Position numbers and translations under genes: made by a program | Origin: Pirellulales bacterium | GTDB taxonomy: Bacteria > Planctomycetota > Planctomycetia > Pirellulales > PALSA-1355 | Direction: 5' to 3' | DNA: 64,000 bases | Assembly (NCBI GenBank): GCA_041741015.1 | Contig: JBGSKX010000006.1 | Span: 2,495 to 66,494 of the forward strand | Part shown: in pieces, positions 25,564 to 60,999 of the stretch | Layout: each line of letters begins with the position of its first letter | Position numbering within the stretch: the stretch's first letter is position 1 | Notes under the pieces: model-generated | Database searches by the model: none | The model's input: the letters and a program-made list of their open reading frames with translations, nothing else | Told to the model about the DNA's origin: nothing

Positions 25564-25594
25564 GTCAAGTCTCACAAAGTGGTTTCGACGATGT

Positions 25595-31742: not shown

Positions 31743-31753
31743 GTGCGAATCTC

Positions 31754-36804: not shown

Positions 36805-36834
36805 CGAGCCTGCTTCACTGGAGAACCTGAGGGC

Positions 36835-37095
36835 ATGGGTCCTGCTGAAATCAAAGAGACGATTCTCGACATCCTGGAAGGCATCGCGCCGGACGAAGAT
36901 CTGAGCGGCCTGAAGGATGACGTGCCGCTGCGCGAGCAACTGGAGCTCGACAGCATGGACTTTCTGGACATCGTGATGGAGCTCCGCAAGCGTTACCGGG
37001 TGCAGATTCCCGAGGACGACTACCTGGAGCTGGCCACGATGAACAGCACGGTGAACTACCTGACGCCGCTGATGAAGGACCTGGAGAAGGTCTGA
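36835..37095 (+). CDS. Acyl carrier protein
   Basis: 86 aa with the phosphopantetheine attachment motif LELDSMDFLDIV. Confidence 0.88.
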   Translation: MGPAEIKETILDILEGIAPDEDLSGLKDDVPLREQLELDSMDFLDIVMELRKRYRVQIPEDDYLELATMNSTVNYLTPLMKDLEKV

Positions 37096-37212
37096 TCCTC
37101 CCTCGGACGAACTGATCCCAATGGGCCAAAAGAACCCGTTGGGCGAATCCGCGAATCGCACCAAATCCCACCTGGCAACATCCGCGACGCCAGTCGCGAG
37201 CTAAGAGCGTTC

Positions 37213-38637: not shown

Positions 38638-38667
38638 GAGAAAGGCGCGCTCCGCCGCGATTGCTGT

Positions 38668-40113: not shown

Positions 40114-40572
40114 ATGAGATCCCCCATGAGCTTGCAAGAGATCGAACAAGCGATTCCGCATCGTCCGCCGTTCCTGCTGGTCGACGAAATCGTGGACCGC
40201 GGTGAGGACTGGATCATCTGCCGGAAGACGTTCCACGGGGACGAGTACTTTTACGCTGGCCACTATCCGGAGTTTCCAATCACGCCGGGCGTGTTACTGT
40301 GCGAAGCAGCGATGCAGGCCGGCGCGATTTTGCTCTCGCATCGCGAAACGCCACCGGAGGGTGGAATTCCAGTTGCGGCGGGTTTGAACAACGTGCGTTT
40401 CCGGCGGATGGTTCGGCCGGGCGACACCATCGAAATGGAAGTCAGGCTCACAAACCGCATCTCGAAAGCCTGGTTCCTATCGGCAAAAGTTTCCTGCGGC
40501 GGGCAGCTTGCCGTCCGCATGGACTTCATCTGCGCCGTGGCCCAGCCGGAAATGAATGGCAACGGCAACTAA
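40114..40572 (+). CDS. FabZ/FabA-like 3-hydroxyacyl-ACP dehydratase (hotdog fold)
   Basis: [14 protein letters not shown] and [20 protein letters not shown] (catalytic His and Glu context). The start abuts the previous stop (TGAATG). Confidence 0.85.
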
Positions 40573-40588
40573 CGGGACCCGGTGCCGA

Positions 40589-41404
40589 ATGGCCACTGAT
40601 TTTCTGCAACTGGCCGGCAAAACGATCCTCGTGTTCGGCTTGGCAAATCGCAAGAGCGTCGCCTGGCACGTGGGCCAGGTGCTGCGAGAGGCCGACGCAA
40701 ATGTGGTTTATGTCGTACGCAGCGAACAACGCCGCGACGGAGTGCGGAAGCTGCTTGGACCGGAGACGGACATTTACGTCTGCGACGTCGAGCATCAGGA
40801 CCAGATCGAGCGAATCGCCGCTGAAGTCTCTGCGCGGCATCCCAAGCTGCATGGCCTCGTGCATTCGATCGCGTTTGCCGACTACGGCGAAGGGCCGAGG
40901 CCGTTTCATGAAACGTCGCGGTCGGCATTCCTGCGCGCGGTGGATATTTCCTGTTTTTCACTGGTGGCGCTGGCCAACGCGTTTAAGCCCGCGCTGGATG
41001 TGAGTGCGTCGGTCGTAGCGATCTCGATCTCAACCACACGGATGGCGGCCGAGAACTACGGCTACATGGCGCCGGTGAAGGCTGCGCTCGATTCTTCGCT
41101 CGTGTTCCTAGCGAAGTCGTTTAGCCGGTTCTCCGAAGTACGGTTCAATGCCGTCTCGCCGGGCTTGCTCAAAACTTCGGCCTCGGCCGGCATTCCCGGC
41201 TACATCGACAGCTACCTGTACGCCGAGCAGGTAACTCTTCGCCGCCGCGCGCTTCAAACCGCGGAAGTGGCGAGCACCGTCGCATTTTTGTTGAGCCCGC
41301 GCTCCAGCGGCATCAATGCTCAGCAATTGGTAATCGACGCCGGCATGAGCGTGAATTATTTCGACGAGCGGATTGTGCAGCGGTGCGTGGACTTGGCCGA
41401 GTGA
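40589..41404 (+). CDS. FabI-like enoyl-ACP reductase (SDR)
   Basis: [34 protein letters not shown] (the Y..K of FabI) and [12 protein letters not shown] align with my memory of E. coli FabI. ATG at 40589. Confidence 0.8.
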
Positions 41405-43820: not shown

Positions 43821-43834
43821 GGACTTCGCTCCGA

Positions 43835-48286: not shown

Positions 48287-48637
48287 CTTCCGTTATGTGT
48301 CCTTGCTGCCGTTGGGGGCAGTCCATCGCCTAAAACTCGGGATCTTGCTGGGAAAATCGGCCCGATGGACCGCCTCATGCCACGAACGAATATCAGACTC
48401 TCTTAATTCATTCTCCGCTTTTGGCAAGCAGGTCTTCATGCCAGCGACGGCTATTGTCGATCGCAAGTCATTACTCCGCAGTCACTTACTAAAACGCTGG
48501 TTTTCTTGCTGCCGGCTACCGCAATCGCTCTCGCGGTACTGGCTTAATGGGCCGGTCCCCCAACTGTCAAGCCGACTTGGAGCAAAGCCAACAGTCAGGT
48601 CCCCCCGAAGGTAGGCCTCCTGCTTGACAGGAAGTAT

Positions 48638-48660
48638 CTGTACTAGTACAACTAGTACAG
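48638..48660. promoter_or_regulatory. Perfect inverted repeat, candidate GntR/YtrA operator overlapping a promoter
   Basis: The repeat is CTGTACTAGT-aca-ACTAGTACAG, with 10-bp perfect arms. It ends right at the first possible start codon of the GntR gene. TTGACA at 48624-48629 followed by 17 nt and TACAAC (48647-48652) would put the -10 element inside the repeat. Confidence 0.55.
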
Positions 48661-49074
48661 TTGGGGAGCAATGTGGAATTCAGCATCCAAGTCACGACCG
48701 GTGTTCCGATTTATCAACAGCTTGCCGAGCAAATCTGCGCCGGCATCGCTCGAGGGCGACTCACGCCCGATGAGCGGCTCCCGTCGGTGCGTGAGCTATC
48801 ACAAACACTGGTGATCAACCCGAACACCGTGGCCCGCGCTTACACAGAGCTCGAGCGGCAAGGGGCAGTTTATACGCGACCAGGAATGGGGGTCTTCGTC
48901 CGCTCCGCGCGACCTACTCTCACACGCCAGGAGCGGCAGTCCCGGCTGCAAGACGCGGTGGACAAGCTGCTGATCGAGGCCGTGGGACTGGGCTGTGACA
49001 GTGGCGAAGTGCTGGAGTTGATCGACAGCTGCATCAAACAGTTCCAATGGCAAACGGGTTCAACGACGAGCTAA
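48661..49074 (+). CDS. GntR-family transcriptional regulator (short YtrA-like subfamily)
   Basis: PIYQQLAEQICAGIARGRLTPDERLPSVRELSQTLVINPNTVARAYTELERQGAVYTRPGMGVFV is a winged HTH, followed by a short C-terminal helix pair. Start is TTG 48661 or GTG 48673. Confidence 0.85.
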   Translation: MGSNVEFSIQVTTGVPIYQQLAEQICAGIARGRLTPDERLPSVRELSQTLVINPNTVARAYTELERQGAVYTRPGMGVFVRSARPTLTRQERQSRLQDAVDKLLIEAVGLGCDSGEVLELIDSCIKQFQWQTGSTTS

Positions 49075-49151
49075 TTGGGTTTGTTTGAAGGTACGCGCAA
49101 TACTCTGAAACTTACGGGGATGGCCATGAGCGACGCATCGTCATCGAAGAG

Positions 49152-50054
49152 TTGACGAAATACTACGGTCCGCGGTGCGTGGTCAACACCGTCAACCTCC
49201 GTGTGCCGGCCGGTTGTGTCTACGGATTTCTGGGCCGCAACGGCGCCGGCAAATCCACGCTCGTCAAAATGTTGATGGGCATGGTTCAGCCGGATGCCGG
49301 CTCGTCGCAACTCTTGGGTAGTGATAGTGGCACGCTAACTTCGGCCACGCGCGCTCGCGTGGCCTATCTGGCGGAAGGCCATCCACTTTATCGCTGGATG
49401 ACGGTAGCGCAGGCGGCTCGTTTTGCACAGGCGTTCTATTCGCCGGAGCGGTGGCACGGCCGCTTCCTGGACGAGATCTTGGATCACTTTCGGATCTCGC
49501 CGAAGAGCAAGGTGGGCCGTTTGTCGAACGGCCAGCGAGCCCAGGTGAGCCTGGCGCTGGCGCTTGCTCCCGATCCGGAGCTCTTGGTGCTGGACGATCC
49601 GACGTTGGGCCTCGATACCGTTGTGCGCCGCGATTTTCTGGAATCGATGATTCATCTGATCCAGCGCAGTGGGCGCACGATCTTTTTCAGCTCGCACATT
49701 CTGAGCGACGTGGAACGCGTGGCCGATCGGATTGGTGTGCTGGTCGACGGCGTCCTGCGGGTCGATTGTCCAACCGACACGTTCAAAGCGGCGCTCCGCC
49801 GCGTCGTGCTGGAATTCTCCGGTAGTGTGCCGCGGTTTCCCGATTGCGAGGGACTGGTCAGCCAGCGTCAAATCGGCAATCGGCTGGAGATCGTCGTCGT
49901 GCACTTTGGGGATGTGCACCGCGAACTGGCCGCAGGCCTGGGCGCGATCCACGTCGAGGAGGTGGAAATGAATCTGGAGGACGCGTTCATCGCCTATACC
50001 CGCGGCGAAACGCGACCGCTGCCCTCATTCGATCGGGAGCCAATCCGATGCTAA
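49152..50054 (+). CDS. ABC transporter ATP-binding protein (start codon problematic, see findings)
   Basis: Walker A GRNGAGKST, signature LSNGQRAQ and Walker B LLVLDDPTLGLD. The conserved N-terminal strand ERRIVIEEL is encoded in frame upstream of the first canonical start. Confidence 0.85.
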   Translation: MTKYYGPRCVVNTVNLRVPAGCVYGFLGRNGAGKSTLVKMLMGMVQPDAGSSQLLGSDSGTLTSATRARVAYLAEGHPLYRWMTVAQAARFAQAFYSPERWHGRFLDEILDHFRISPKSKVGRLSNGQRAQVSLALALAPDPELLVLDDPTLGLDTVVRRDFLESMIHLIQRSGRTIFFSSHILSDVERVADRIGVLVDGVLRVDCPTDTFKAALRRVVLEFSGSVPRFPDCEGLVSQRQIGNRLEIVVVHFGDVHRELAAGLGAIHVEEVEMNLEDAFIAYTRGETRPLPSFDREPIRC

Positions 50055-50719
50055 AGGCGCTGGTTTGGAAAGAAACTCGCGAGCTCGCTCCGCTGGTGGC
50101 GCTGGCAGTCATTGCCGAGCTCCTGTTCTATCTCCCGCTGAACATGTTCCCGCTGAACATGTTTGTCAGCATCAACCTGAATTATGACGATGGGGGGCGG
50201 ATCCCCTTTGTCAAAACTTCGCTCGAGAACTGGTTGCTCGTAGTTGGTGGGGCGACTGGCATCGCCTTGGGATTCTGGCAAACCGCCGGCGAACTCGGCC
50301 GGGGAACGTTTTTGTTTTTGCTGCATCGCCCGGTCGATCGCACGACCGTGTTCACCGCGAAGTTGGCGGTGGGAGTTGCACTGACGTTGCTGGTAGCCGG
50401 CGTGCCAATTCTGGGCTACGCGCTTTGGGCGGCAACGCCCGGGACGCATGCGAGCCCGTTTTTCTGGTCGATGACCATTGGAACCTGGCTGCTTTGGTTC
50501 CGTTTGCCGCTGTTTTACCTGGGGGCGTACCTCAGTGGACTGCGGCCTGGACGCTGGCTGGGGAGTCGTGCGTTGCCGCTGTTTGCGGCGCCATTGTTAT
50601 TCCTGATGTTGTCTATTGTCGCGTCCTGGCCACTGGTCTCTGTGGCACTCACCTTGCTGGTCGAGCTGGCCTATCTAATTGCGATTTACTTCGTTGCGCA
50701 GTCTCGCGACTACTCCTAA
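50048..50719 (+). CDS. Integral membrane protein, probable ABC-2-type permease partner
   Basis: From the ATG at 50048, which overlaps the ATPase stop (ATGCTAA): MLKALVWKETRELAPLVALAV, then about 6 hydrophobic spans. The track start at 49844 is an over-extension. Confidence 0.65.
   Translation: MLKALVWKETRELAPLVALAVIAELLFYLPLNMFPLNMFVSINLNYDDGGRIPFVKTSLENWLLVVGGATGIALGFWQTAGELGRGTFLFLLHRPVDRTTVFTAKLAVGVALTLLVAGVPILGYALWAATPGTHASPFFWSMTIGTWLLWFRLPLFYLGAYLSGLRPGRWLGSRALPLFAAPLLFLMLSIVASWPLVSVALTLLVELAYLIAIYFVAQSRDYS
50135..50164 (+). repeat. Perfect 15-bp tandem duplication inside the permease gene
   Basis: cccgctgaacatgtt occurs twice back to back (50135-50149 and 50150-50164). It encodes PLNMF-PLNMF in frame. 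Confidence 0.95.
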
Positions 50720-50752
50720 GTTAACCCATCCGCGCTCTCGAAGGAGACGGCC

Positions 50753-52228
50753 ATGTCTGCTCGCTGGAAGAAAGCTTCGCTGGGCGCGTCGCTCGTGCTG
50801 GCGACAATTCTGGGCGTTGGCCTGTTCGCGGCCTGGTTCTTCGTCTTCATCACGGGTGACAACGCCATCCGTCCTTACCGAGCCCAAGAAGCCTCCAAAC
50901 AGCTTGTATTCACCCGCGACGGTGAAGCTTTGGTGGAGATCTATCCGGCAGGTTATCGAGGCGACCTCGATCCCATTTACCAGACGCTCGAGGGCCGGCC
51001 CTACTTGCCGAAGGAAGGAAGCGTCGCGCGCTTAGATCCGCTCGATTTAGTGGATGATTACGCGCAGGTCATTCGTCCAGCATCCGACGTCAACACTGAC
51101 TCCGTCTACGTCGATCGCAATGACTGGTCGATGCGGATGCTGGGGATGGGCGCTCTTTCGCCGACGAAAACGTACTGGTACCTGATTTACAATCTGAATC
51201 ACGAAGGGACCGCCGCGTTCGTTGGCTACGACGCGCGCACCCGGCGGCGAATGGGTTATTTCGGTCGGCGCGGATTCAGTACCGATCCCCCCGCCCCCGC
51301 AGACTCGTTCAAGATTCCCTTCGATCTGTTTGTCGACGGTGGATGGAGTGCCGCCTACTTTACTCGCGGATCCGAGCCAAACTATGACGTCGCTCTGCAC
51401 GAGGACATGTTCCTGGTCTCGGACGGCGAACTTCTGAGAGTGAGTTTGGCGAACCAAACGGTGGAGTCGTTTTCGCTGCCAGAGAAAGTGATCGCCTTGG
51501 GCAGATACACGCCGCACACCGGAGTCTTACCGCGTCATTCTCGTCGCAACGCGATGGTCGTGCGGCTGCCGAGTGAGTTGCGGCTGTTCAGCCTGCAAGG
51601 AGAACCGCTCGGCGCGATTCCGTTGAAGCCTGAGCTGCAGGATAAGAGTCTGACGCTGTACAACCTCGAGTCCGGGGAGTTCATTTTGGAAGCGACCGTG
51701 GCCGGTGTTCGCGAAGCACCACCGACCGTCACCTGGTTTGCCGCCGACGGCAAGGAACTGCGCCATATGGTTGCGGATGTCTTTCCGCCTCGGCCCAAGA
51801 GGCCGTGGGAGGACTGGGTATTTCTGGGGATCGTGAATGTTCCGGTGTTGTATACAGTCGTGTGGCCAGTGGCGGCGTATTTCGAGGTGAACCGGGGGGC
51901 TGCGCCCGACATGACCACGGCCTTTGCCCAGTTGCTGAGCCGGTTCTGGGCGCCGTACACGCTGCTGGTCCTGATCTGCCTGGCGCTGGCCGTTCGGACG
52001 TATCGTCGGCACGCGCGGTACGAGTCGCGAGGTGCCGCGGCCTGGGCAATCTTCGTCCTGCTGACGGGGCCGTTCGGCATGGCGGCCTACCTGCTGCATC
52101 GTGAGTGGCCGGTTCGCACCGCATGCGAACATTGCGGCCGACCGACGCCACGCAATCGCAGCCAGTGCTTAGTCTGTGCCGAGCCGTTTCCGGCGCCTGA
52201 GCGGCGCGGGATTGAAATCTTCGCCTGA
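50753..52228 (+). CDS. Hypothetical membrane protein: N-terminal TM, large extracytoplasmic domain, three C-terminal TM spans, C-terminal zinc-ribbon-like CxxC..CxxC
   Basis: 491 aa ORF, co-directional and 33 nt after the permease gene. The C-terminus carries CEHCGRPTPRNRSQCLVCAEPF. No family was recognised. Confidence 0.6.
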   Translation: MSARWKKASLGASLVLATILGVGLFAAWFFVFITGDNAIRPYRAQEASKQLVFTRDGEALVEIYPAGYRGDLDPIYQTLEGRPYLPKEGSVARLDPLDLVDDYAQVIRPASDVNTDSVYVDRNDWSMRMLGMGALSPTKTYWYLIYNLNHEGTAAFVGYDARTRRRMGYFGRRGFSTDPPAPADSFKIPFDLFVDGGWSAAYFTRGSEPNYDVALHEDMFLVSDGELLRVSLANQTVESFSLPEKVIALGRYTPHTGVLPRHSRRNAMVVRLPSELRLFSLQGEPLGAIPLKPELQDKSLTLYNLESGEFILEATVAGVREAPPTVTWFAADGKELRHMVADVFPPRPKRPWEDWVFLGIVNVPVLYTVVWPVAAYFEVNRGAAPDMTTAFAQLLSRFWAPYTLLVLICLALAVRTYRRHARYESRGAAAWAIFVLLTGPFGMAAYLLHREWPVRTACEHCGRPTPRNRSQCLVCAEPFPAPERRGIEIFA

Positions 52229-52441
52229 TGTGCCCGTCAGGCAGACACGGGCTGGTCGAGCCTGGGATTCGCTCCAAACCCCGGCTGCCTTTGGCATTGC
52301 ATCGGGCGGAGCTTCGGCCCTACAATTCCCGCAAGCGCACAAAAGTGCCGCGCCGCTAGCGTTCTCAACCGCCTTGGGCGGCGCTGGCTTTCGACCAGGC
52401 ATTCGTTTTTCGCACCCGCAGACGCACAAAGGACTGTTTCC

Positions 52442-54895
52442 GTGGCAAGTCCGTTTTCCTTGTTCCGCAAGAACCAGAAGATCCTGATGGCCGTCTTCGG
52501 CGTGGCTGCCATGATCGCCTTCGTGTTTCTTGGCCCGCTCTCGCAGTACATGGGCGGCGGCCGACCCGAGGGTGGCAATCCCGTGATCGTCGAGACGAAG
52601 TACGGCGACCTCAAGGCGAGCGAACTGCAGGGTCTCGAATATCAGCGTGAACTGGTCAATCGATTCATCGAAGCGCTGGTCGTCGAATCCGCGGCCAAGC
52701 AATTCTCTCAGCCTGGAATGGACAATCGCTGGCTGCAGCAGATTGCCCAGCAACAGTTCATGATGTGGCACAATCGCATCATGGAGCACGCCTCGGGTGG
52801 ACCGGAGCAGCAGGCGGTCGAGACAATGCTAATGGCCGAACGGGCCAAGCAGATGGGCCTGGTGGTGAGCGATCAGACGATCAACGACATGATTCGGCAG
52901 ATCTCGTCTGATAGCTTGTCTCCCGCCGAGATTCAGACAATCATTCGCCGCCTGCAGCCCCAGCGGCCGATCAGTGTCACGCGGTTGTTTGATGCGTTTC
53001 GGACCGAACTTCTGGCGATGCAGTACTACCAGTTTTTCGTGAGCTCGCTGGCCGATGTGCCGCCGGCTCAGCGGTTCGAATACTTCTCGCGTTTGAATCG
53101 GCGCGTGAAGTCCGAATTGATGCCGCTGGCAGTGGCGGATTTCGTGAGCCAGGCGCCGGAACCGACCGATGCTGAGGTGAAGGAGTTCTACGAAAAATAT
53201 AAGAACGCCTATCCCGATCCGACGTCCCCTGAACCCGGCTTCAATAAGCCCAAGCGGGCATCGTTCCAGTACTTCAAGGCCACCCTCGATCCGCTGGCGG
53301 AGCAACTCAAGGGTGAAGTGAGCGAGGAAGAGATCGCGAAGTTCTATGAAGAGAACAAGCAGCGCTTCCCGGCGATGAGCCTGAACAATCCGGCCGCAAC
53401 GGCGCCGGCCGGAGAGGAACCCGCCGCCGAATCACCTGTGGCCGAGAAGCCTGCGGAAGAAACTCCCGCCGCGGAGACGCCTGCGGAAGAGAAACCAGCC
53501 GACGCTCCGGCGGAGGAGAAACCTGCCGAAGAGACGCCCGCCACAGAGCCAGCGCCCGAGGAGAAGGCACCGGAAGAGAAGGCGCCCGAAGGTGAACCGG
53601 CCCCGAGCGAATCGCCCCAAGCACGGCGTGCTTCGGGCCAGGTGTTCCGGCTGGTGAGCCTGCAGGAGGAAAAACCCGCAGAGGAAGCCCCGGCGACTGA
53701 ATCGCCTGCCGAAGAGAAGCCCGCTGACGAGGTCCCTGCCACGGAAGCACCGGCCGAGGTCGCGCCGGCTGAAGCGACGCCGGCAGAACAGAAGCCCGCC
53801 GCGGAAACCCCGACCGAGGATAAGCCAGTCGAAGAGACGCCAAAGAATCCCGGTGACGAGGTGGTGCCCGAGCCGGCCGTGCCAGAGGCGGCACCGCAGT
53901 TCGAGCCGCTTGAAAAGGTAAAGGACGAGATTCGCGACATCCTCGCGCAGCAGAAGGCCGCCGAAAAGCTGCAAGCGCAGTTCGAAGAGCTTTCCGGACA
54001 GATGAAACGGTATGCCGACGAACACGACATCTACTCCGTTGAAAAGCAGACGAATGCGAAGGCGATCGCGCCGCAGCCGCTGGACTTCAACAAGCTGGCC
54101 GAAGGAAAGAATGTTGAAGTTGGCGAACTAAAGTCGGTCACGCCGCTGCAGGCCATGAAATCGGACATCGGCAAGTCGTTCCGCGAGACGCAGAGCGCCG
54201 TGCCAGGCCAGGGACGGCAAATACCGTTCGTACAGTTCGCGTTCGCCGAGAATCTGCCCGAGTATCGTGCGGAAATGGACCAGGACGGCGAGAACAACTT
54301 CTATCTGTTCTGGAAGACGAGCGAAGAACCGGCCTACGTTCCGCCACTGGATGAGATTCGCAGCGAAGTGGTGCAAGCCTGGAAACTCAACAAAGCTCGC
54401 GAACTGGCAAAGAAACGCGGCGGGGAATATGCCGAACAGGCCCGGACGCAGAAAAAGTCGCTGGCCGAGCTATTTGGTTCGCAGCCAAACATGAAGGTAA
54501 GCGAGCCGGTGCCTTTCAGTTGGCTCACTCTGGGGAATGTGCCGCTGCAACAGGGCGCAGAGCCGCGACTGAGCGAGGTCGACGGTGTCGACCAGGCCGG
54601 CCCCGACTTTATGCGAATGGTTTTCGGCTTATCGGCCGGGGGCGTGGGCGTTGCATTCAACCAGCCAAAGGATATCGTCTACGTGGTTCGGGCGATCGAG
54701 TTCGAGCCGTCTGAAGAACAGCTTCGGGACGAGTTTGCCCGCGAAAACCCGATGCGATACTTGTCCGCTGCGCGCGAGGATCAGCGGGCGATCTATCGCA
54801 ACTGGATCGAAGATCTAAAGTCCGACGCCGACGTTCGCTGGCTGCGACAAGCTGACGTCCGCCGCTCGACCGCCGCCAGCGAGGCGGAGTTTTAA
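52442..54895 (+). CDS. PpiD/SurA-like periplasmic chaperone with a long Pro/Ala/Glu-rich insertion
   Basis: The N-terminus FSLFRKNQKILMAVFGVAAMIAFVF is a typical PpiD anchor. SurA-N-like helices follow. A low-complexity block sits at roughly 53385-53900 (AEKPAEETPAAETPAEEKPADAPAEEKPAEETP...). Confidence 0.65.
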   Translation: MASPFSLFRKNQKILMAVFGVAAMIAFVFLGPLSQYMGGGRPEGGNPVIVETKYGDLKASELQGLEYQRELVNRFIEALVVESAAKQFSQPGMDNRWLQQIAQQQFMMWHNRIMEHASGGPEQQAVETMLMAERAKQMGLVVSDQTINDMIRQISSDSLSPAEIQTIIRRLQPQRPISVTRLFDAFRTELLAMQYYQFFVSSLADVPPAQRFEYFSRLNRRVKSELMPLAVADFVSQAPEPTDAEVKEFYEKYKNAYPDPTSPEPGFNKPKRASFQYFKATLDPLAEQLKGEVSEEEIAKFYEENKQRFPAMSLNNPAATAPAGEEPAAESPVAEKPAEETPAAETPAEEKPADAPAEEKPAEETPATEPAPEEKAPEEKAPEGEPAPSESPQARRASGQVFRLVSLQEEKPAEEAPATESPAEEKPADEVPATEAPAEVAPAEATPAEQKPAAETPTEDKPVEETPKNPGDEVVPEPAVPEAAPQFEPLEKVKDEIRDILAQQKAAEKLQAQFEELSGQMKRYADEHDIYSVEKQTNAKAIAPQPLDFNKLAEGKNVEVGELKSVTPLQAMKSDIGKSFRETQSAVPGQGRQIPFVQFAFAENLPEYRAEMDQDGENNFYLFWKTSEEPAYVPPLDEIRSEVVQAWKLNKARELAKKRGGEYAEQARTQKKSLAELFGSQPNMKVSEPVPFSWLTLGNVPLQQGAEPRLSEVDGVDQAGPDFMRMVFGLSAGGVGVAFNQPKDIVYVVRAIEFEPSEEQLRDEFARENPMRYLSAAREDQRAIYRNWIEDLKSDADVRWLRQADVRRSTAASEAEF

Positions 54896-54954
54896 CTCCA
54901 ACTTCGTCGGCAGCTTAATCGAACCCTGGGCGTAGACCGCTCGAGGGTTTCGCC

Positions 54955-57204
54955 CTATCTCCGCGGCTTGAGCATGACCATGCCCAAGGGTGGCAGGACG
55001 ATTGGCACCGAGTACGGGCGGCCGTCCCAGGGTAGTTCTTCGGCCATGATGCCGGGACCGTTCCCCAGGTTGCTGCCCCCGTAGAACGTCGAGTCGCTGT
55101 TAATGACTTCTTCGTACCAGCACTGCTCGGGCACGCCGATGCGGTGCATTGTCCGTGGCACAGGCGTGAAGTTGCAGACCGCGATAATGAAGTCCTGCGG
55201 ATTTTTGGCCCGCCGCAGATAAGCGAGCGTGCTCTGCTCCCAGTTGTGGCACTCGACCCACTCAAAGCCCTTACTGTCGAAATCGACTTCGTGCAGGGCC
55301 GGTTCGCGGCGATAGAGATGATTGAGGTCCGCGACGAAGCGTTTGAGTCCCTGGTGGGTGTCCCACTGCAGCAGGTCCCACTGCAAGTTCGTGTCGTAGT
55401 TCCACTCGTTCCACTGGCCGAACTCGCAGCCCATGAACATCAGCTTCTTGCCGGGATGCGAGAACATGTAGCCGTACAGCAGCCGCAGGTTGGCGAACTT
55501 CTGCCACAGGTCGCCCGGCATCTGATCGAGCAGCGAACCCTTGCCGTGCACGACTTCATCATGCGAGAAGGGGAGCATGAAGTTCTCGCTGAAGGCGTAT
55601 ATCAGGCTGAACGTCAACTCGTCGTGGTGAAACTTGCGGTGGACCGGCTCGTGTCGCATGTAGCGGAGCGTGTCGTTCATCCAGCCCATGTTCCACTTGA
55701 GGCTGAAGCCCATGCCGCCGAGATAGGTTGGCCGCGAGACGCCGGTCCAGGCGGTTGATTCCTCGGCGATCGTGAGCACGCCAGGATACTGGGCATGCGT
55801 CTGTTCGTTGAATTCCTTGAGAAAGCTGATCGCCTTGAGGTTTTCGCGTCCGCCGTATTCGTTGGGGATCCACTGGCCCGGTCCACGACTGTAGTCGAGG
55901 TAGATCATCGAGGCCACGGCATCCACGCGCAGCCCGTCAATGTGGTAGTGGTCGAGCCAGAACAGGGCATTTGAAACAAGGTAGTTGCGGACCTCGTTGC
56001 GGCCGTAATTGAAAATCACGGTGCCCCAGTCGGGGTGCTCGCCCTGGCGCGGGTCGGCGTGCTCGTAGAGATGCGTGCCGTCGAACATCCGCAGGCCGTG
56101 GGCATCGCGAGGGAAGTGGGCCGGCACCCAGTCAATCAGCACTCCGATGTTATTCCGGTGGCAGTAGTCGACGAAGTACATGAAGTCGTCGGGCGTCCCA
56201 TAGCGGCTGGTAACCGAGTAGTAGCCGACGGTCTGGTAGCCCCAGCTTCCAGTGAACGGATGCTCGCTGATCGGCATCAGTTCGAGGTGCGTGTAGCCCA
56301 TTTCCTGGCAGTAGGCCACGAGCCGGTGCGCCAGTTCGCGGTAGTTGAGCCAGCCGTTGGGGTTCTCGGTCGAGCGCTGCCAGCTACCAAGGTGCACTTC
56401 ATAGACCGACATCGGCGCGTCGAGCGCGTGATTGCGATGGCGACAGGCCATCCACGCGTTGTCGTTCCACGTGTATTGCGAGAGGTCAGTCACGATCGAC
56501 GCCGTACGCGGCGGCAATTCGGCGGCGAAGCCGTAAGGATCGGACTTCTCGAGCACCTGGTCGCGATGGCGAATGTGGTACTTGTAGATCGCCCCCGCTT
56601 CCAGGCCCGGCATGAACAGTTCCCAGATGCCGCTGGGAACGTGCTTGCGCATCGGATGGCGGCGCGAGTCCCATTCGTTGAAGTCGCCGACGACGCTGAC
56701 CCCGGTGGCATTGGGCGCCCAGACGGCGAAGTTTACGCCGCGCACGGAGTCGATCGTGCGGATCTGTGCGCCCAGCTTCTGGTAGCTGGCCCAATGCTTG
56801 CCTTCGCCGAGCAAGTACAAATCGAATTCAGAGAGCAGCGGCGGAAAGGCATACGGATCGTGCATGGTGCGTTCGGTTCCCCGCGTGTCGGCGGTCTTTA
56901 ACTGATAGCGATGCTGCGGTTGCTTGTTTTCCAGCGGGCAAATAGCTTCAAAGACCCCGGCCGGGTGGATCTGCCGCATGGGTTGGTTGCGACGATGTTC
57001 GGGATCGACCACCCAGGCCTGCGACGTGCCCGGTAGGTATGCGCGAACAGCCAATGCCCGGCGTCCCGCGGTCATGACCTCGTGCGGTCCGAGTAGCGCG
57101 AATGGATTCTCATCGTGGCCGTCCAACAGGGGGCCCAGCTTATCCAACTCCACCGTGGTGCGCGTCGTCATCGTCATCTTGTTCCTAGTGATTCTTGAGC
57201 ACAT
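54955..57204 (-). CDS. glgB: 1,4-alpha-glucan branching enzyme GlgB
   Basis: GH13 motifs are present: [27 protein letters not shown] and [10 protein letters not shown]. An N-terminal CBM48-like region is also present. Confidence 0.93.
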
Positions 57205-57277
57205 GAGGGGGTAAGTCTAGCCGCAAAATCCGCCGAGCTTACCCAGGATCAAGCCCAACCCCCGAACTTGACCCGAC

Positions 57278-57859
57278 TTATTGAAACCGAATGAGGGGCG
57301 AACTTCGCCCGCGCGACAGGCTAAGCCAGGCCCTCGCCACGGCGAGCTGGAATCGCAGCCAGTCCAACACCGCCGGCCAGAGCCCGGTAGCTGTTCGGGC
57401 TCGCTGCCGCTGATTATCAACCGTCGCCAGGTGTGGCGTGACCGCCGCGGCCGCAGCCGTATGCGGTGGATCAAAACGCCAGACCCGGCATTCCAGCTCG
57501 TGAAACTGCAGCGCCCGATCGACGCGCTGCCACAGGTCGCGATTCTTGACCGGGACCATTTCGCCGTAGTGCTCCCACTCCCAGTTGTTCTCGCGCCAGT
57601 CTTCCAGGCCGAAGGCCAGGCCGCGATTCACATATTTGCTGGGAGTGACAAGCGTCACTCGCGAGGGCTGTTCCAGGGCTTCAAGCCCCCGAACTACGGC
57701 TAGCAGCTCGAGGCGGTCGCCGCCTACGTCAGGCTCCGTATCGGTCGCTTCGAGCTGCTTTGCGCCATCATCGGATTGCAAGACGAACCGCCATTGCCCT
57801 TGCTCATCCTGCCGGCAGGATTCGGAGAACAGCAAGTAATGCGGGGTGGCTACTTTCAT
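57278..57859 (-). CDS. RNase HI-like protein with a degenerate catalytic site
   Basis: From the ATG at 57859: RLELLAVVRGLEAL and PVKNRDLWQRVDRAL align with E. coli RNase HI NRMELMAAIVALEAL and PVKNVDLWQRLDAAL. The D10 context reads LFSESC and the D70 context reads LVTPSKYV. The C-terminal GH..NE..D..LA block is absent. Confidence 0.65.
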   Translation of the reverse strand: MKVATPHYLLFSESCRQDEQGQWRFVLQSDDGAKQLEATDTEPDVGGDRLELLAVVRGLEALEQPSRVTLVTPSKYVNRGLAFGLEDWRENNWEWEHYGEMVPVKNRDLWQRVDRALQFHELECRVWRFDPPHTAAAAAVTPHLATVDNQRQRARTATGLWPAVLDWLRFQLAVARAWLSLSRGRSSPLIRFQ

Positions 57860-58149
57860 CGGGGAGGTCTTCAGGATGGTCGATTCGAGTGCCAGGTGTG
57901 CTCGCACGGCGTCTTTCGCTTGCCGAAGACAAAGGATGCGCGAACACCCTTTGCCAGGGCCCGATGCGACTTCGCCTAGGGCGGTCAGCCCGAGCCACGT
58001 GGTTTAAGATATCGTCAGCCGCCGCGCAGACTCTCTACCTTCGCCAAACGGAAGAGTGGAATTCCTCACCAGCCGGGCGCTTCTATAGCGAAGATGCGGA
58101 TTGCAGCCGCGATGGGCCAGGGCGCTGCAGTGCGCGCGAGCACTCGCGC

Positions 58150-58204
58150 AAAAAAGAGCGGCGCGGACGTCAACCTGATCCATCAGGTCTGCGCCCGCGC
58201 CGCC
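58150..58204 (-). terminator. Rho-independent terminator candidate (minus strand)
   Basis: The minus strand reads GCGGCGCGGGCGCAGACCUGAUGGAUCAGGU...CCGCGCCGC followed by UCUUUUUUG, about 60 nt after the stop at 58266. Confidence 0.55.
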
Positions 58205-58265
58205 GGAGGTTGCGGTTCCGACTTGTTCGTGCGCGTCGACTAGGCGACGCGTTTCACTGCGTCTT

Positions 58266-59009
58266 CTAGGCGACTAGCTTCACCGTGGCGACTTCGCCCG
58301 TGATTCCGCACAGGAATTCTTCGAAGATCCGCTGATCGAGGGCCGAGGCAGAATCGCTTTCCGGGTGGAATTGTGTGCCGAAGGCCAACCACTCGGTGGT
58401 GCTTTCGATGGCTTCGATGACGCCATCGGGACAGCGGGCGGAAACCATGAAGCCGGGGGCGACGTCGTCGATAGCCATGTGGTGCAGGCTGTTGACCCGG
58501 ATTTCGCCGTCGCCATAGACCCGCTCCATGAGCGTGCCGGGCACGACTTCCAGACCGTGGCGATGGGCCGGATCGATCAGGTCCTTGTGCGGCAGGGCCT
58601 TGGGCAGATCTTCCGGAATATGCAGAAAGAGCGTGCCGCCGAGCGTAACGTTGATCAGTTGCATGCCCGTGCCGACGCCGAAGACGGGCATCCGCCGCTT
58701 GGCAATGTTCGCCATTAGCCGGCGATCGAACTCTTCGCGGCGAGCGTCGATCGGACGCACCGAGGGATGCAGCATGTAGCCGTCGCGACGTGGATCGAGA
58801 TCACCGCCGCCCACGAGTACCACGCCGTCCAGCATGTCCAGAAGGCGGTTCAAGTCGGCGTCTTCTCGGGTCGGGGGCAGAATAACCGGCACCCCGCCGG
58901 CCTCGAGAATGGAATCGTAGTATCCGGCACAAACATAGGTGAAGGCGGGGGCATCCTTCTTGGCGGCGCGAAAGTCGGCATTCAGACCAATTAGCGGCTT
59001 CGATCGCAT
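58266..59009 (-). CDS. Class I glutamine amidotransferase-like / peptidase C26 (PuuD-like) protein lacking the nucleophile Cys
   Basis: From the ATG at 59009, with AGGAG 9 nt upstream: MRSKPLIGLNADF ... VLVGGGDLDP ... FGTQFHPE. The nucleophile elbow reads PVFGVGTGMQ instead of the remembered P.F.ICRG.Q. Confidence 0.75.
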   Translation of the reverse strand: MRSKPLIGLNADFRAAKKDAPAFTYVCAGYYDSILEAGGVPVILPPTREDADLNRLLDMLDGVVLVGGGDLDPRRDGYMLHPSVRPIDARREEFDRRLMANIAKRRMPVFGVGTGMQLINVTLGGTLFLHIPEDLPKALPHKDLIDPAHRHGLEVVPGTLMERVYGDGEIRVNSLHHMAIDDVAPGFMVSARCPDGVIEAIESTTEWLAFGTQFHPESDSASALDQRIFEEFLCGITGEVATVKLVA

Positions 59010-59503
59010 GTGATTGCACTCCTGCGACATTTCCTTTGTCGCGATGAAAGAACAGGGCGGAACAGAACGCCACGAGGCCGCGGTCCCGTGCGGGAAAGAA
59101 TGCTGAGGCGATAGCCCTCGCGTCGGGCAGCTGTCGCGCCACGCTCGCTGGTCGGCTACACATGAAGCCGAAGCGAGTCCCCCAGTTCGGGCGAGCGCAT
59201 CAAAAGAGGACGAATCTCGCATCGTCCCTGATGCGGACACCACTGCCGGGGGAAAGCTGCTGCCTTGAAGGGCCCTTCCTGGGCGCCCATCGCCGGAGCA
59301 ATTTTTCCCAATGGGTGTTGTTGTGCGGCCTCGAAACTCCTCTACGGCATTGCCGTGTTGTCCCGCGATGGGGAATGCAAGTGGAGTCGGAATGTAAGCC
59401 GCAGCGCGAGATTTACAAGCGCCTTCGCTTATTTTGGACCGACCGAAAAACGCTAGCACAACATCCTGTTAACAAACAGTTTAGAGCGCGGTAGCATGAC
59501 AGC

Positions 59504-60580
59504 ATGAAGTACACGAAAGTCGCGCTAGAGGGCCTCGCCTACACGCTGCCCGAGGAAATCGTCAGCTCTACGGACCTCGAAGCCCGACTGGAGCCGCTCT
59601 ACCGCCGGCTGCGGCTGCCCGAGGGACGCCTGGAACTCATGACCGGAATTCGCGAACGGCGCTTCTGGCCTGTCGGCACGCTGCCGGGGGACCACAGCAT
59701 CGTCAGCGTGCGCAAGCTGCTGGAAAATGCGCAGCTCGATCCGCGCGAGGTTGGGATGCTGGTGCACGCCTCGGTCTGTCGCGACTATATCGAGCCGGCC
59801 ACCGCCTGCCGGGTACATCACGATGCGGGTCTGCCGGCCGAGTGCCTGGTGTACGACATTTCGAACGCCTGCCTGGGCATCCTGAATGGCATGATCCAGG
59901 TGGCGAACGCGATTGAGCTGGGCCAGGTTCGGGCCGGCATCGTCGTGGGCACGGAAGACGCCCGGCCAATCGTCGAAAACACGATTCGGCTGCTTAACAC
60001 CGACAATTCGCTCACGCGCGACCAGATGAAATTGGCCGTCGCCACTCTGACGCTCGGCTCGGGGAGCGTGGCGGTGCTGCTCACACATCGTGAGTTAGGC
60101 CGTAAGGAGAGCCGGATTCTGGCCGCCCACGGCCGGGCTCACACGGTGGGGAACGCTCTCTGCCGCGGGACGTATCAGCCGGTGCCAGGTGCTGATGGTT
60201 CGATCACGAGCGTCGCGCCGGTCATGCAGACGGACAGCGAGCTGCTGCTGGTCGAAGGCATCGCCGCAGCTGGGCCGACGTTCCAGGGCTTTCTGGGGGA
60301 GGCGGCGTGGTCGCGGGCGGACATCTCTCGCACGATCTGCCACCAAGTGGGGAGCGCTCACCGAAAATTGATGCTGAGCACGTTGGAACTCGATCCGACG
60401 CGGGACTTCACAACCTACGAAACACTCGGAAACACGGGCTCCGTGGCGCTGCCCATTACGCTGGCAAAGGCGGCCGAAGCCGGGGTGCTGCGGGCCGGCG
60501 ATCGCGCGGCCTTGATGGGCATTGGCTCGGGAGTGAATGTGCTGATGATGGCCGTCGAGTGGCAGTGCAGGGCGTCCTAA
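59504..60580 (+). CDS. Thiolase-fold condensing enzyme, FabH-like; closest to my memory of the OleA type
   Basis: SVCRDYIEPATA, DISNACLGILNGM, ATLTLGSGS, LCRG, TDSELLLVEGI, CHQVG, LGNTGSVALPITL and GDRAALMGIGSGVN align block by block with my recollection of Xanthomonas OleA. Confidence 0.8.
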   Translation: MKYTKVALEGLAYTLPEEIVSSTDLEARLEPLYRRLRLPEGRLELMTGIRERRFWPVGTLPGDHSIVSVRKLLENAQLDPREVGMLVHASVCRDYIEPATACRVHHDAGLPAECLVYDISNACLGILNGMIQVANAIELGQVRAGIVVGTEDARPIVENTIRLLNTDNSLTRDQMKLAVATLTLGSGSVAVLLTHRELGRKESRILAAHGRAHTVGNALCRGTYQPVPGADGSITSVAPVMQTDSELLLVEGIAAAGPTFQGFLGEAAWSRADISRTICHQVGSAHRKLMLSTLELDPTRDFTTYETLGNTGSVALPITLAKAAEAGVLRAGDRAALMGIGSGVNVLMMAVEWQCRAS

Positions 60581-60999
60581 CCGTCCTGCTCGTCGTCCGC
60601 CTCGTCCAGCCTCTCGGGCCCTTCGGCAATGGCATAGGCCGTGGCATGGCTGCGGCAATGCGAGATGCTGATGTGCATCGTGTCGATGCCGCGGGCCTCG
60701 AGCACGTCGCGCGCTCCTCCTCGGAGTACGACCGAGGGGCGTCCGCCGGGATCATTGCGGACTTCGATGTCGCGCCAGCTGATGCCTTTGCGCCAACCGG
60801 TGCCGAGCGCCTTGAGCACGGCTTCCTTGGCGGCCCAGCGACCGGCGAAGTGTTGTGTGGCCTGTTTGCGGGTCTGGCAGTATTGAATCTCGTGCGGTGT
60901 GTAGACCCGGGTAATGAACAGCTCGCCGTGGCGCTCGATCATCTGCGCAATGCGGAGGCACTCGATGATGTCGGTGCCGATGCCGAGGATCTGACTCAT
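60577..60999 (-). CDS. acpS: Holo-ACP synthase (4'-phosphopantetheinyl transferase AcpS)
   Basis: From the ATG at 60999: ILGIGTDIIEC, FAGRWAAKEAVLKALG and ISISHC. The track start at 61482 is an over-extension across the upstream gene. Confidence 0.88.
   Translation of the reverse strand: MSQILGIGTDIIECLRIAQMIERHGELFITRVYTPHEIQYCQTRKQATQHFAGRWAAKEAVLKALGTGWRKGISWRDIEVRNDPGGRPSVVLRGGARDVLEARGIDTMHISISHCRSHATAYAIAEGPERLDEADDEQDG

What the first reader, a model, noticed from the sequence alone, without database searches (positions are those of the whole stretch)
59504..60999. OleA-type thiolase located 24 kb from the OleC/OleD-like genes, converging on acpS; no OleB in the window
The 358 aa FabH-like protein aligns block by block with my recollection of Xanthomonas OleA. 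The shared blocks are SV(S/C)RDY(L/I)EP(S/A)TA with the Glu, (A/S)NACL with the Cys, LCRG, TD..LLL(I/V)EGI, HQV(S/G) with the His, G(N)(I/T)G with the Asn, and GDR.AL.GIGSG.N. The match is closer to OleA than to housekeeping FabH.

Together with the OleC/OleD-like pair at 32662-35351, this gives three of the four Ole functions. They are split between two loci, and no alpha/beta-hydrolase OleB is visible.

Its stop codon overlaps the stop of the convergent holo-ACP synthase gene (shared CTAA at 60577-60580). That places the ACP-activating enzyme next to a condensing enzyme that may feed the orphan cluster's private ACP.

A missing OleB would predict a beta-lactone or a 2-alkyl-3-hydroxy acid rather than an olefin, unless oleB lies elsewhere in the genome.
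Basis: partly seen in the sequence, partly recalled or inferred. Interest (0 to 1): 0.55.

Follow-up and report, generated by a model that had tools for sequence, protein, structure and literature searches.

The report
Planctomycete OleA gene displaced by inversion
This gene encodes a genuine OleA, the enzyme that joins two fatty chains head-to-head to start long-chain hydrocarbon synthesis; it is an ordinary member of a known family that a local DNA inversion separated from its partner genes and placed next to an unrelated housekeeping gene.

Summary
The ORF at 59504-60580 (+) is a 358-aa OleA-family thiolase, not FabH. Its stop overlaps the stop of convergent acpS (CTAA, 60577-60580). OleC/OleD-like genes lie 24 kb away, and the window has no OleB.

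The interpretation needs correcting in three ways.

1. The two "loci" were ancestrally one. In related Pirellulales, OleA sits directly against the FabI end of a conserved cluster: Mch-MptN-OleC-OleD-KS-ACP-flavoenzyme x2-FabZ-FabI.
2. The acpS adjacency is a by-product of inverting the TopA...OleA block. In ancestral-type genomes acpS converges on topA instead. The OleA-acpS juxtaposition occurs only in a shallow subclade (OleA at least 80% identical).
3. A missing OleB is unlikely. Pirellulales carry a highly conserved OleB ortholog elsewhere in the genome, always overlapping a CitG-like gene. It is closer to Xanthomonas OleB than to haloalkane dehalogenase. A C31:9 alkene is reported for a cultured Pirellulales member.

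The likely product is therefore a long-chain olefin, not a beta-lactone. I could not search the rest of this genome. Ole genes in Planctomycetes have been known since 2010, so this is a new member of a known kind. The more interesting point is the physical coupling of ole genes to a dedicated FAS-like/flavoenzyme set.

The parts
59504..60580 (+). oleA: OleA-family thiolase (head-to-head Claisen condensing enzyme), 358 aa. Residues in window numbering: Glu in IEPATA (about residue 96), Cys in SNACLG (about 122), His in CHQVG, Asn in GNTG.
   Evidence: PDB phmmer: all 12 top hits are X. campestris OleA structures, E 1.6e-55 to 5.4e-54 over the full length; the best FabH hit is 7.6e-20. NF006720: 436.7 bits against a cutoff of 285. 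Calibration on the same model: Xc OleA 477.6, E. coli FabH 110.5. Catalytic residues and OleA-type indels are shown.
60577..60999 (-). acpS (holo-ACP synthase), 140 aa. It is convergent with oleA and their stop codons overlap. It is the last gene of a housekeeping pyrD-trpS-orf170-acpS string.
   Evidence: PF01648 at 1.2e-22; sequence. The same string is seen in L002, L165 and L168. In ancestral-type genomes it converges on topA.
59010..59503 (.). Divergent intergenic region between the GATase start (about 59009) and the oleA start. oleA is monocistronic.
   Evidence: GATase conserved start at 59009, giving 247 aa as in relatives. One sigma-70-like match at 59469-59497, which is a consensus match only.
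45557..60580 (.). Block inverted relative to the ancestral layout: topA(-), GntR-like(+), ABC(+), two unknowns(+), 817-aa protein(+), glgB(-), RNase H(-), GATase(-), oleA(+).
   Evidence: The same internal order occurs in L169/L170, L168, L167 and L165, but with the flanks swapped. Ancestral: acpS><topA ... oleA><FabI-like. Window: FabI-like...(KaiC,HK)><topA ... oleA><acpS.
32662..34353 (+). oleC-like (olefin beta-lactone synthetase family), 563 aa.
   Evidence: NF006754 696.8 bits (cutoff 478). It scores 577.9 and 522.8 on the two lineage-specific OleC models. Bona fide Xc OleC scores 564 on the Shewanella model. 47% identity to Xc OleC over 544 aa.
34344..35351 (+). oleD-like (2-alkyl-3-oxoalkanoate reductase family), 335 aa.
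   Evidence: NF042422 411.9 bits and NF042423 398.3 bits, both full length and both below the 580 cutoffs; PF01073.
35524..41404 (+). Dedicated FAS-like set. KS 35524-36804; ACP 36835-37095; CrtI-like flavoenzymes 37213-38637 and 38668-40113; FabZ-like 40114-40572; FabI-like 40556-41404.
   Evidence: KS has the Cys-His-His triad plus Lys; FabZ-like has the His/Glu motif; FabI-like has Y-x6-K; ACP has the DSM serine. Conserved order in 14-22 of 80 OleC loci.
30792..32635 (+). mch and mptN-like (RimK-family ATP-grasp) directly upstream of oleC. The 293-aa ORF is not OleB.
   Evidence: TIGR03120 401.9 bits; TIGR00768 179.8 bits. Mch-MptN-OleC is conserved in 43-46 of 80 loci.

Best explanation
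The ORF encodes a bona fide OleA. By homology (not assayed here), this is a homodimeric thiolase that loads one long acyl thioester on its active-site Cys. It uses a Glu from the partner subunit to deprotonate the alpha-carbon, then condenses it non-decarboxylatively with a second acyl thioester to give a 2-alkyl-3-oxo acid. OleD (reduction) and OleC (ATP-dependent beta-lactone formation) are encoded in the cluster at 32.7-35.4 kb. An OleB ortholog, which decarboxylates the beta-lactone to a cis-olefin, is most likely encoded elsewhere in the genome next to a CitG-like gene, as in other Pirellulales. The end product would then be a long-chain, probably polyunsaturated, hydrocarbon such as the C31:9 alkene found in Pirellulales. 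Ancestrally, oleA lay convergent to and immediately next to the oleC-oleD-KS-ACP-flavoenzyme x2-FabZ-FabI cluster. In this lineage an inversion of the roughly 15-kb topA...oleA block moved oleA 24 kb from the cluster and placed it against acpS. The acpS adjacency is therefore incidental. Shown here: family membership, catalytic residues, synteny, the rearrangement, and the existence of OleB orthologs in the order. Inferred: enzyme activity, the acyl-ACP feed from the cluster's ACP, the presence of oleB in this particular genome, and the identity of the product.
For: OleA identity. The top 12 PDB hits are Xc OleA, at E about 1e-55 over the full length, against 7.6e-20 for the best FabH. On NF006720 the window protein scores 436.7, Xc OleA 477.6 and E. 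coli FabH 110.5 (cutoff 285). On the FabH model TIGR00747 they score 81, 114 and 503. Identity is 33% over 353 aa to Xc OleA against 23% over 149 aa to EcFabH. E117, C143, H285 and N315 are all conserved. FabH has Phe at the Glu position and lacks a 16-aa OleA segment. These are the defining residues according to PMC8180931.

Synteny. OleA is convergent on the FabI-like end of the same cluster in L166 (44-bp gap, with everything through OleC-MptN-Mch contiguous), L170, L007, L008, L010, L003, L004 and L167.

Inversion. One 27-kb contig (L169/L170) shows orf171-AcpS><TopA...GlgB-RNaseH-GATase-OleA><FabI...OleC, and L168 agrees. The window-type layout occurs only in L002 (94%) and L165 (80%).

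OleB. An HLD-family hydrolase is conserved at 69% identity or more in over 120 clusters from Pirellulales. Many carry the JGI name cis-3-alkyl-4-acyloxetan-2-one decarboxylase. These proteins are 35-38% identical (162-188 bits) to Xc OleB against 26-30% (87-116 bits) to DhaA. They share OleB-specific motifs and the Asp/His catalytic residues. In L051 and L060 the gene is on the same contig as OleC-OleD, about 9 kb away.

Chemistry. [quoted passage not shown] Evidence that OleA uses acyl-ACP in vivo: PMC6463001.
Against: OleB was not found in this genome, because only 64 kb are available and the collection scans were exhausted. The window lacks the OleB-CitG-PTPS block that follows DnaX in L172, although it has the same NrdR-bPH-RpoN-DnaX block. 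Loss of OleB in this lineage is therefore not excluded. The OleC and OleD homologs score below NCBIfam's lineage-specific equivalog cutoffs. No activity, product or expression data exist for this organism. The KaiC-histidine kinase pair (41683-45505) between FabI and TopA is not accounted for by a simple single inversion. No repeats mark the breakpoints.
Confidence: 0.75

Rival explanations
1. OleA, OleC and OleD act without any OleB in this organism, so the pathway ends at a cis-beta-lactone or a 2-alkyl-3-hydroxy acid lipid.
For: No OleB in the 64-kb window. In L172, OleB follows DnaX, but in the window that position holds TPR-DtxR-Mch-MptN-OleC, so the OleB block is at least not where one relative has it. 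oleACD clusters lacking oleB are known to make beta-lactone natural products (PMC7064751).
Against: OleB orthologs are more conserved across Pirellulales (69-100% identity) than OleA or OleC (about 55-65%). They are normally not adjacent to the other ole genes, so absence from a 64-kb window says little. A C31:9 olefin is found in Pirellulales (PMC6995999). From my own knowledge, the known beta-lactone clusters (lipstatin, nocardiolactone) are actinobacterial secondary-metabolite clusters with two OleA paralogs. Only one OleA is present here, and the genes sit among core housekeeping genes.
Confidence: 0.15
2. The protein is an OleA-like KAS III that primes the cluster's private ACP/KS system by decarboxylative condensation with malonyl-ACP. 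It would be an initiator, not a head-to-head condensing enzyme.
For: The cluster has KS, ACP, FabZ-like and FabI-like genes but no FabH-type initiator, FabD or FabG. OleA and FabH share a fold and the Cys-His-Asn triad.
Against: The OleA-specific Glu117 base and the OleA-type insertion are conserved throughout the clade and are absent from FabH. The protein scores 337 bits higher on the OleA model than on the best FabH model. OleC and OleD in the same conserved cluster require a 2-alkyl-3-oxo acid, which is the OleA product.
Confidence: 0.06
3. It is the housekeeping FabH of fatty-acid synthesis, and sits next to acpS as part of a lipid-synthesis neighbourhood.
For: Automated annotations call the family '3-oxoacyl-ACP synthase III'. 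It is adjacent to acpS.
Against: It scores 81 and 99 bits on the FabH models against cutoffs of 292 and 249. The acpS adjacency is lineage-specific and derived. Xc OleA, the biochemical and structural reference, falls in the same NCBIfam model, and E. coli FabH does not.
Confidence: 0.02

Closest known systems
Xanthomonas campestris OleA (PDB 3ROW, 3S20, 4KU3 and others; EC 2.3.3.20)
   Same: Alignable over the full length (33% identity, E about 1e-55). It falls in the same NCBIfam model, NF006720. E117, C143, H285 and N315 are conserved, as is the OleA-specific segment that FabH lacks. It is genomically tied to OleC and OleD homologs.
   Different: It is not in an oleABCD operon. It is monocistronic and convergent to its partner cluster, and here it is displaced 24 kb by an inversion. 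It carries an extra insertion after the CRG motif that varies in length (roughly 9-29 aa across the clade; 14 aa in the window). The partner cluster contains a private KS/ACP/FabZ/FabI set and two CrtI-like flavoenzymes that Xanthomonas lacks. OleB is encoded at a separate site.
Shewanella/Photobacterium Ole pathway fed by the Pfa synthase (C31:9 hentriacontanonaene)
   Same: The same class of end product is expected, since C31:9 is reported in Pirellulales (PMC6995999). OleA probably takes acyl chains directly from a dedicated ACP (PMC6463001). ole genes are linked to the machinery that makes the special acyl precursor (PMC3098273).
   Different: No Pfa-type multidomain synthase lies next to the ole genes. 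Instead there are discrete type II-like enzymes plus two amine-oxidase/CrtI-like flavoproteins.
oleACD beta-lactone natural-product clusters (lipstatin, nocardiolactone)
   Same: OleA, OleC and OleD homologs are clustered without an adjacent OleB.
   Different: A conserved OleB ortholog exists elsewhere in Pirellulales genomes. There is a single OleA rather than a pair. The setting is chromosomal and among core genes, conserved across an order, rather than a sporadic secondary-metabolite island.
FASII-like clusters with phytoene-desaturase-like genes in Desulfotalea psychrophila and Kuenenia (Rattray et al. 2009, PMC2649909)
   Same: FabF paralog, ACP and two amine-oxidase/phytoene-desaturase-like flavoenzymes. 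The organism (D. psychrophila) makes C31:8/C31:9 hydrocarbons without a Pfa synthase.
   Different: I could not retrieve those sequences, so homology to the window's flavoenzymes is untested. No radical SAM genes lie in the window's cluster. Here the set is physically fused to oleC/oleD and, ancestrally, to oleA.
FabH / KAS III (E. coli FabH, PDB 1HN9)
   Same: Thiolase fold and Cys-His-Asn triad.
   Different: 23% identity over only 149 aa. Phe instead of the catalytic Glu. It lacks the 16-aa OleA segment. It scores below the cutoff on the OleA model, and the window protein scores below the cutoff on the FabH models.

Membership tests
OleA (thiolase superfamily; NCBIfam NF006720/PRK09258; EC 2.3.3.20) | Full-length similarity to structurally and biochemically characterised OleA that exceeds similarity to FabH; score above the curated model cutoff | tested here: met
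   PDB: OleA at 1.6e-55 (residues 3-353) against the best FabH at 7.6e-20. NF006720 436.7 bits against a cutoff of 285. Calibration: Xc OleA 477.6, EcFabH 110.5.
OleA (thiolase superfamily; NCBIfam NF006720/PRK09258; EC 2.3.3.20) | Catalytic Cys143 with the His285/Asn315 oxyanion hole | tested here: met
   SNACLG, CHQVG and GNTG align with ANACLA, IHQVS and GNIG. Roles are from PMC8180931.
OleA (thiolase superfamily; NCBIfam NF006720/PRK09258; EC 2.3.3.20) | Glu117 general base in a [LIVYF]-E-P motif, contributed by the opposite subunit | tested here: met
   The window has I-E-P-A-T-A and Xc has L-E-P-S-T-A. The Glu is conserved in all 11 Pirellulales sequences aligned. E. coli FabH has Phe. 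The trailing [VIL] of the motif as printed in PMC8180931 is Ala in both Xc OleA and the window protein. The cross-subunit geometry was not modelled.
OleA (thiolase superfamily; NCBIfam NF006720/PRK09258; EC 2.3.3.20) | Genomic association with oleC and oleD | tested here: met
   24 kb apart in the window. Directly adjacent in L166, L170, L007, L008, L010, L003, L004 and L167.
OleA (thiolase superfamily; NCBIfam NF006720/PRK09258; EC 2.3.3.20) | Non-decarboxylative head-to-head Claisen condensation of two long-chain acyl thioesters | not testable with these tools
   Requires an enzyme assay.
OleA (thiolase superfamily; NCBIfam NF006720/PRK09258; EC 2.3.3.20) | Placement inside the OleA clade in a broad thiolase phylogeny | not tested
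   The only outgroup sequence in hand was E. coli FabH. I relied instead on profile scores and diagnostic residues and indels.
FabH / KAS III | Score above the TIGR00747 / NF006829 cutoffs | tested here: not met
   81.2 and 99.1 bits against cutoffs of 292.1 and 249. E. coli FabH scores 503 and 476.
Canonical oleABCD olefin operon | Four ole genes contiguous, or an oleBC fusion | tested here: not met
   oleA is convergent to, or displaced from, oleCD. No OleB is adjacent to OleC in any of 80 planctomycete loci. OleC is 563 aa and is not a fusion.
Canonical oleABCD olefin operon | OleB (beta-lactone decarboxylase) present in the genome | not testable with these tools
   It is absent from the window and the rest of the genome is unavailable. 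At the order level, orthologs are widespread, conserved and closer to Xc OleB than to DhaA.
oleACD beta-lactone natural-product cluster | No oleB anywhere in the genome | not testable with these tools
   Same limitation. The order-level evidence argues against it.
oleACD beta-lactone natural-product cluster | Paired OleA homologs (LstA/LstB type). This feature rests on my own knowledge of the lipstatin and nocardiolactone clusters. | tested here: not met
   There is a single OleA-like gene in the window and in each relative locus examined.

The most novel reading that the evidence does not exclude
The ancestrally contiguous Pirellulales cluster is oleC-oleD-KS-ACP-two CrtI-like flavoenzymes-FabZ-FabI, convergent on oleA. 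It may be a self-contained, Pfa-synthase-independent pathway. A dedicated type II FAS-like module plus flavin-dependent desaturases or isomerases would build a polyunsaturated acyl-ACP. OleA would condense that acyl-ACP directly, giving the C31:9 hydrocarbon of planctomycetes. This would be the 'novel PUFA/PUHC route' that Rattray et al. (2009) hypothesised for Desulfotalea and Kuenenia but never tied to ole genes.
Probability: 0.35. Interest if true: 0.65.

Novelty: new member of a known kind. Interest (0 to 1): 0.3.

Why it matters
As an OleA, it adds little. Ole genes and C31:9 hydrocarbons in Planctomycetes have been known since 2010, and metagenomic surveys already count planctomycete oleC genes as hydrocarbon producers (PMC10176705). 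Two results are useful.

1. A caution for genome mining. In Pirellulales the four ole genes are routinely dispersed: oleA is convergent or displaced, and oleB sits in a separate OleB-CitG-like operon. 'oleACD without oleB nearby' therefore must not be read as a beta-lactone cluster.
2. A testable hypothesis. ole genes are consistently fused to a private KS/ACP/FabZ/FabI set and to two uncharacterised CrtI-like flavoenzymes. This suggests how bacteria that have no Pfa synthase next to their ole genes could make the polyunsaturated precursors of C31:9.

Tried and rejected
1. The 293-aa ORF directly upstream of OleC (31754-32635), which is the canonical OleB position, is a RimK/MptN ATP-grasp ligase.
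2. The 1-1.9 kb gaps between OleC and OleD in relatives hold a low-complexity/zinc-ribbon protein, not a hydrolase.
3. The roughly 270-300-aa ORFs upstream of OleC in Thermoguttaceae loci are DUF1559, ARMT1-like or unknown.
4. An exact-match lookup of the window's OleA found only a 2.3-kb contig, so the source genome could not be walked.
5. Sukovich et al. 2010 (PMC2893475) is not held, so gene layouts in cultured planctomycetes could not be checked from that paper.
6. No OleB crystal structure or OleB-specific NCBIfam model exists to score against. I instead used Xc OleB, recovered from a metagenome locus whose OleA is 100% identical to the 3ROW sequence.
7. My first inversion model (breakpoints FabI|OleA and KaiC|acpS) was wrong in detail. 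Ancestral-type genomes show acpS against topA, not KaiC. KaiC-HK remains unexplained.
8. There are no inverted repeats at the breakpoints.
9. Matching contig lengths between the OleA, OleB and AcpS hit lists, to place OleB in a close relative's genome, gave no OleB match. Both lists are truncated at 120.
10. I did not run a structure prediction or a broad phylogeny. Sequence evidence was already decisive for OleA against FabH.
Full report
OBSERVATION. The ORF at 59504-60580 (+) exists. It is 358 aa, starts with ATG, and has coding-type composition for this 60% GC genome (GC3 0.80). Its TAA stop (60578-60580) shares the tetranucleotide CTAA (60577-60580) with the TAG stop of a convergent gene at 60577-60999 (-). 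That gene is a 140-aa AcpS-type phosphopantetheinyl transferase (PF01648, 1.2e-22). OleC-like (32662-34353) and OleD-like (34344-35351) genes are real. I found no alpha/beta-hydrolase in the window, either by Pfam/NCBIfam scans of about 43 ORFs or by tblastn. The tblastn queries were a verified haloalkane dehalogenase (E<=10), X. campestris OleB, and planctomycete OleB orthologs.

WHAT THE PROTEIN IS. Against all PDB chains, the 12 best hits are the X. campestris OleA structures (3ROW, 3S20, 4KTI, 4KU3 and others). They score E 1.6e-55 to 5.4e-54 and align residues 3-353. The best FabH is 35 orders of magnitude weaker. The protein scores 436.7 bits on NCBIfam NF006720 (cutoff 285) and only 81-99 bits on the FabH models. 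NF006720 is labelled merely '3-oxoacyl-ACP synthase III', so I calibrated it. Bona fide Xc OleA scores 477.6 and E. coli FabH scores 110.5. On the FabH model TIGR00747 the order reverses (503 for FabH, 114 for Xc OleA, 81 for the window protein). A MAFFT alignment shows the OleA catalytic set defined in PMC8180931. The general-base Glu117 lies in an [LIVYF]-E-P motif (window IEPATA, Xc LEPSTA, FabH Phe instead). Cys143, His285 and Asn315 are also present. A 16-residue segment present in OleA and absent from FabH is present in the window protein. Pirellulales OleAs carry an additional insertion of variable length after the CRG motif. There is only one OleA/KAS III-like gene in the window.

ORGANISM AND FAMILY DISTRIBUTION. 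The closest named genome is a Pirellulales MAG (Bin_30_5, JALHMI01), which is 98% identical over OleC. Thousands of homologs exist in Pirellulales and other Planctomycetota, and some are annotated by JGI as acyl-CoA:acyl-CoA alkyltransferase. Ole genes in Planctomycetes have been known since Sukovich et al. 2010, as cited in PMC7158056 and PMC10176705.

THE TWO 'LOCI' ARE ANCESTRALLY ONE. In L166 (OleA 71% identical) the genes are contiguous: Mch-MptN-OleC-OleD-KS-ACP-FAD1-FAD2-FabZ-FabI, convergent on OleA with a 44-bp gap, followed by GATase. The same OleA><FabI junction occurs in L170, L007, L008, L010 and L003. In L004, L167 and L170 it carries small insertions (PT-HINT genes; cytochrome c and a helicase; a methyltransferase). 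Upstream of OleA, the GlgB-RNase H-GATase string is invariant. OleA is therefore functionally tied to the OleC/OleD cluster by conserved synteny. It is always its own transcription unit on the opposite strand.

THE acpS ADJACENCY IS AN INVERSION BY-PRODUCT. A single 27-kb contig (L169/L170) shows the ancestral layout: orf171-AcpS -> <- TopA, GntR, ABC, three further ORFs, GlgB, RNase H, GATase <- OleA -> <- FabI...OleC. L168 agrees. The window contains the same TopA...OleA block (45557-60580) in the same internal order, but with its flanks exchanged. The cluster's FabI end now faces TopA, and acpS faces OleA. This is the result of inverting that block. The OleA-acpS juxtaposition is found only in the window, L002 (94%) and L165 (80%). 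In L165 there is an 83-bp spacer rather than overlapping stops. acpS is the last gene of a housekeeping pyrD-trpS-orf170-acpS string in every layout. In L169 its stop overlaps topA's by 4 bp, so overlapping convergent ends are simply how this compact gene terminates. Convergent genes cannot be co-transcribed, so nothing supports a functional OleA-AcpS pairing. Two loose ends remain. A KaiC/histidine-kinase pair (41683-45505) lies between FabI and TopA and is not in the ancestral-type loci. No repeats mark the breakpoints.

OleB. None of 80 planctomycete OleC loci has a hydrolase next to OleC. The DhaA probe did hit a roughly 280-aa HLD-family protein about 9 kb from OleC-OleD in L051 (Bythopirellula) and L060. 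That family is strikingly conserved: more than 120 clusters at 69% identity or above, including Bythopirellula goksoeyrii and Lacipirellula. Many members are named cis-3-alkyl-4-acyloxetan-2-one decarboxylase (OleB) by JGI. I recovered authentic Xc OleB from a metagenome locus whose OleA is 100% identical to the 3ROW sequence. The planctomycete proteins are 35-38% identical (162-188 bits) to it, against 26-30% (87-116 bits) to DhaA. They share OleB-specific motifs (NTxAF, Y[LV]APY[DN]SW, F[MV]xDIP[LR]S) and the Asp/His catalytic residues. In all four contexts seen, OleB overlaps a CitG-like gene and is followed by PTPS-like and FliG genes. So in Pirellulales, oleB is normally unlinked or only loosely linked to the other ole genes. 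Its absence from a 64-kb window is expected. Chemically, the Pirellulales isolate Lacipirellula parvula contains n-C31:9, 'often present in planctomycetes' (PMC6995999). I could not search the remainder of this genome. I put the probability that oleB is present elsewhere at about 0.8.

HOW IT MOST LIKELY WORKS. By homology to Xc OleA (PMC8180931), an acyl chain is transferred to the active-site Cys. Glu from the partner subunit deprotonates its alpha-carbon. A non-decarboxylative Claisen condensation with a second acyl thioester then gives a 2-alkyl-3-oxo acid. OleD reduces this, OleC closes the beta-lactone, and OleB decarboxylates it to a cis-olefin (PMC7064751). The partner cluster encodes apparently functional enzymes: a KS with Cys-His-His and Lys, an ACP with the DSM serine, a FabZ-type dehydratase, and a FabI-type reductase with Y-x6-K. 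It also encodes two flavoenzymes only remotely related to CrtI (4DGK at 3.7e-11 for one, no PDB hit for the other). Work in Shewanella/Photobacterium indicates that OleA takes acyl-ACP in vivo (PMC6463001). It is therefore reasonable, but inferred, that the cluster's ACP delivers a specialised, possibly polyunsaturated, acyl chain to OleA. Rattray et al. (PMC2649909) proposed that FabF/ACP/phytoene-desaturase-like clusters make the precursors of C31:8/C31:9 hydrocarbons in Desulfotalea, which lacks a Pfa synthase. The Pirellulales arrangement physically joins such a gene set to ole genes. I rate this reading at about 0.35, because I could not test homology to the Desulfotalea/Kuenenia genes or the absence of a Pfa synthase.

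VERDICT. This is a correct and careful observation of an ordinary thing: a genuine OleA in a lineage long known to have Ole genes. It was separated from its cluster and parked next to acpS by a recent inversion. The beta-lactone prediction and the acpS functional link are not supported. It is a new member of a known kind, with interest about 0.3. The attached cluster architecture is the part worth following up.

Noticed in passing
window 35524-41404 (and L166, L170, L005, L007, L056, L064 and others): A private KS-ACP-two CrtI-like flavoenzymes-FabZ-FabI set is fused to oleC-oleD and conserved across Pirellulales. One flavoenzyme has only a weak CrtI hit (4DGK, 3.7e-11 over about 85 aa) and the other has no PDB sequence hit. 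This is a possible Pfa-independent route to polyunsaturated OleA substrates.
   Followed up: partly
window 30792-32635; L051, L060, L171, L172: ole genes are interleaved with tetrahydromethanopterin-pathway genes. Mch-MptN lies immediately upstream of OleC in 43-46 of 80 loci. The OleB ortholog overlaps a CitG-like gene and is followed by a PTPS-like gene in 4 of 4 loci. Whether this is functional or just frozen synteny is unknown.
   Followed up: partly
window 41683-45505: A KaiC-like ATPase and a hybrid PAS histidine kinase/response regulator sit between the FabI-like gene and topA. They are absent from that position in ancestral-type loci, and the simple inversion model does not explain them.
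   Followed up: no
L004 11179-14964; L167 11165-15941; L170 11110-12817: The OleA|FabI junction is a hotspot for insertions in relatives: two PT-HINT genes in L004, a cytochrome c plus a DEAD helicase in L167, and an N6/N4 methyltransferase in L170. It is also one breakpoint of the inversion in the window's lineage.
   Followed up: no
window OleA residues about 241-262 (about 60224-60289): Pirellulales OleAs carry an insertion after the CRG motif that is absent from X. campestris OleA. Its length and sequence vary (roughly 9-29 aa across the clade; 14 aa in the window). Its structural position relative to the acyl channels was not modelled.
   Followed up: no
window 21246-27511 vs L172 3694-9575: The NrdR-bPH-RpoN-(RecR/YbaB)-DnaX block that precedes Mch-MptN-OleC in the window precedes OleB-CitG in L172. 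This hints that oleB and oleCD may once have been neighbours behind DnaX.
   Followed up: partly
L169 1148-1151; window 60577-60580: The acpS stop overlaps its convergent neighbour by 4 bp both before the inversion (topA in L169) and after it (oleA in the window and L002). In L165 an 83-bp spacer separates oleA and acpS.
   Followed up: partly
window 59469-59497: The only sigma-70-like promoter match in the region ends 7 nt before the oleA ATG. It is either a chance match or a near-leaderless transcript.
   Followed up: no
window 2454-3227 and 3687-4544: Two adjacent PEP-CTERM-tailed proteins (PF07589).
   Followed up: no
window 49844-50719, 50753-52228, 52442-54895, 7143-8171, 60996-61508: Conserved ORFs with no, or nearly no, Pfam/NCBIfam match. 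The first three travel with the TopA...GlgB block in all relatives.
   Followed up: no
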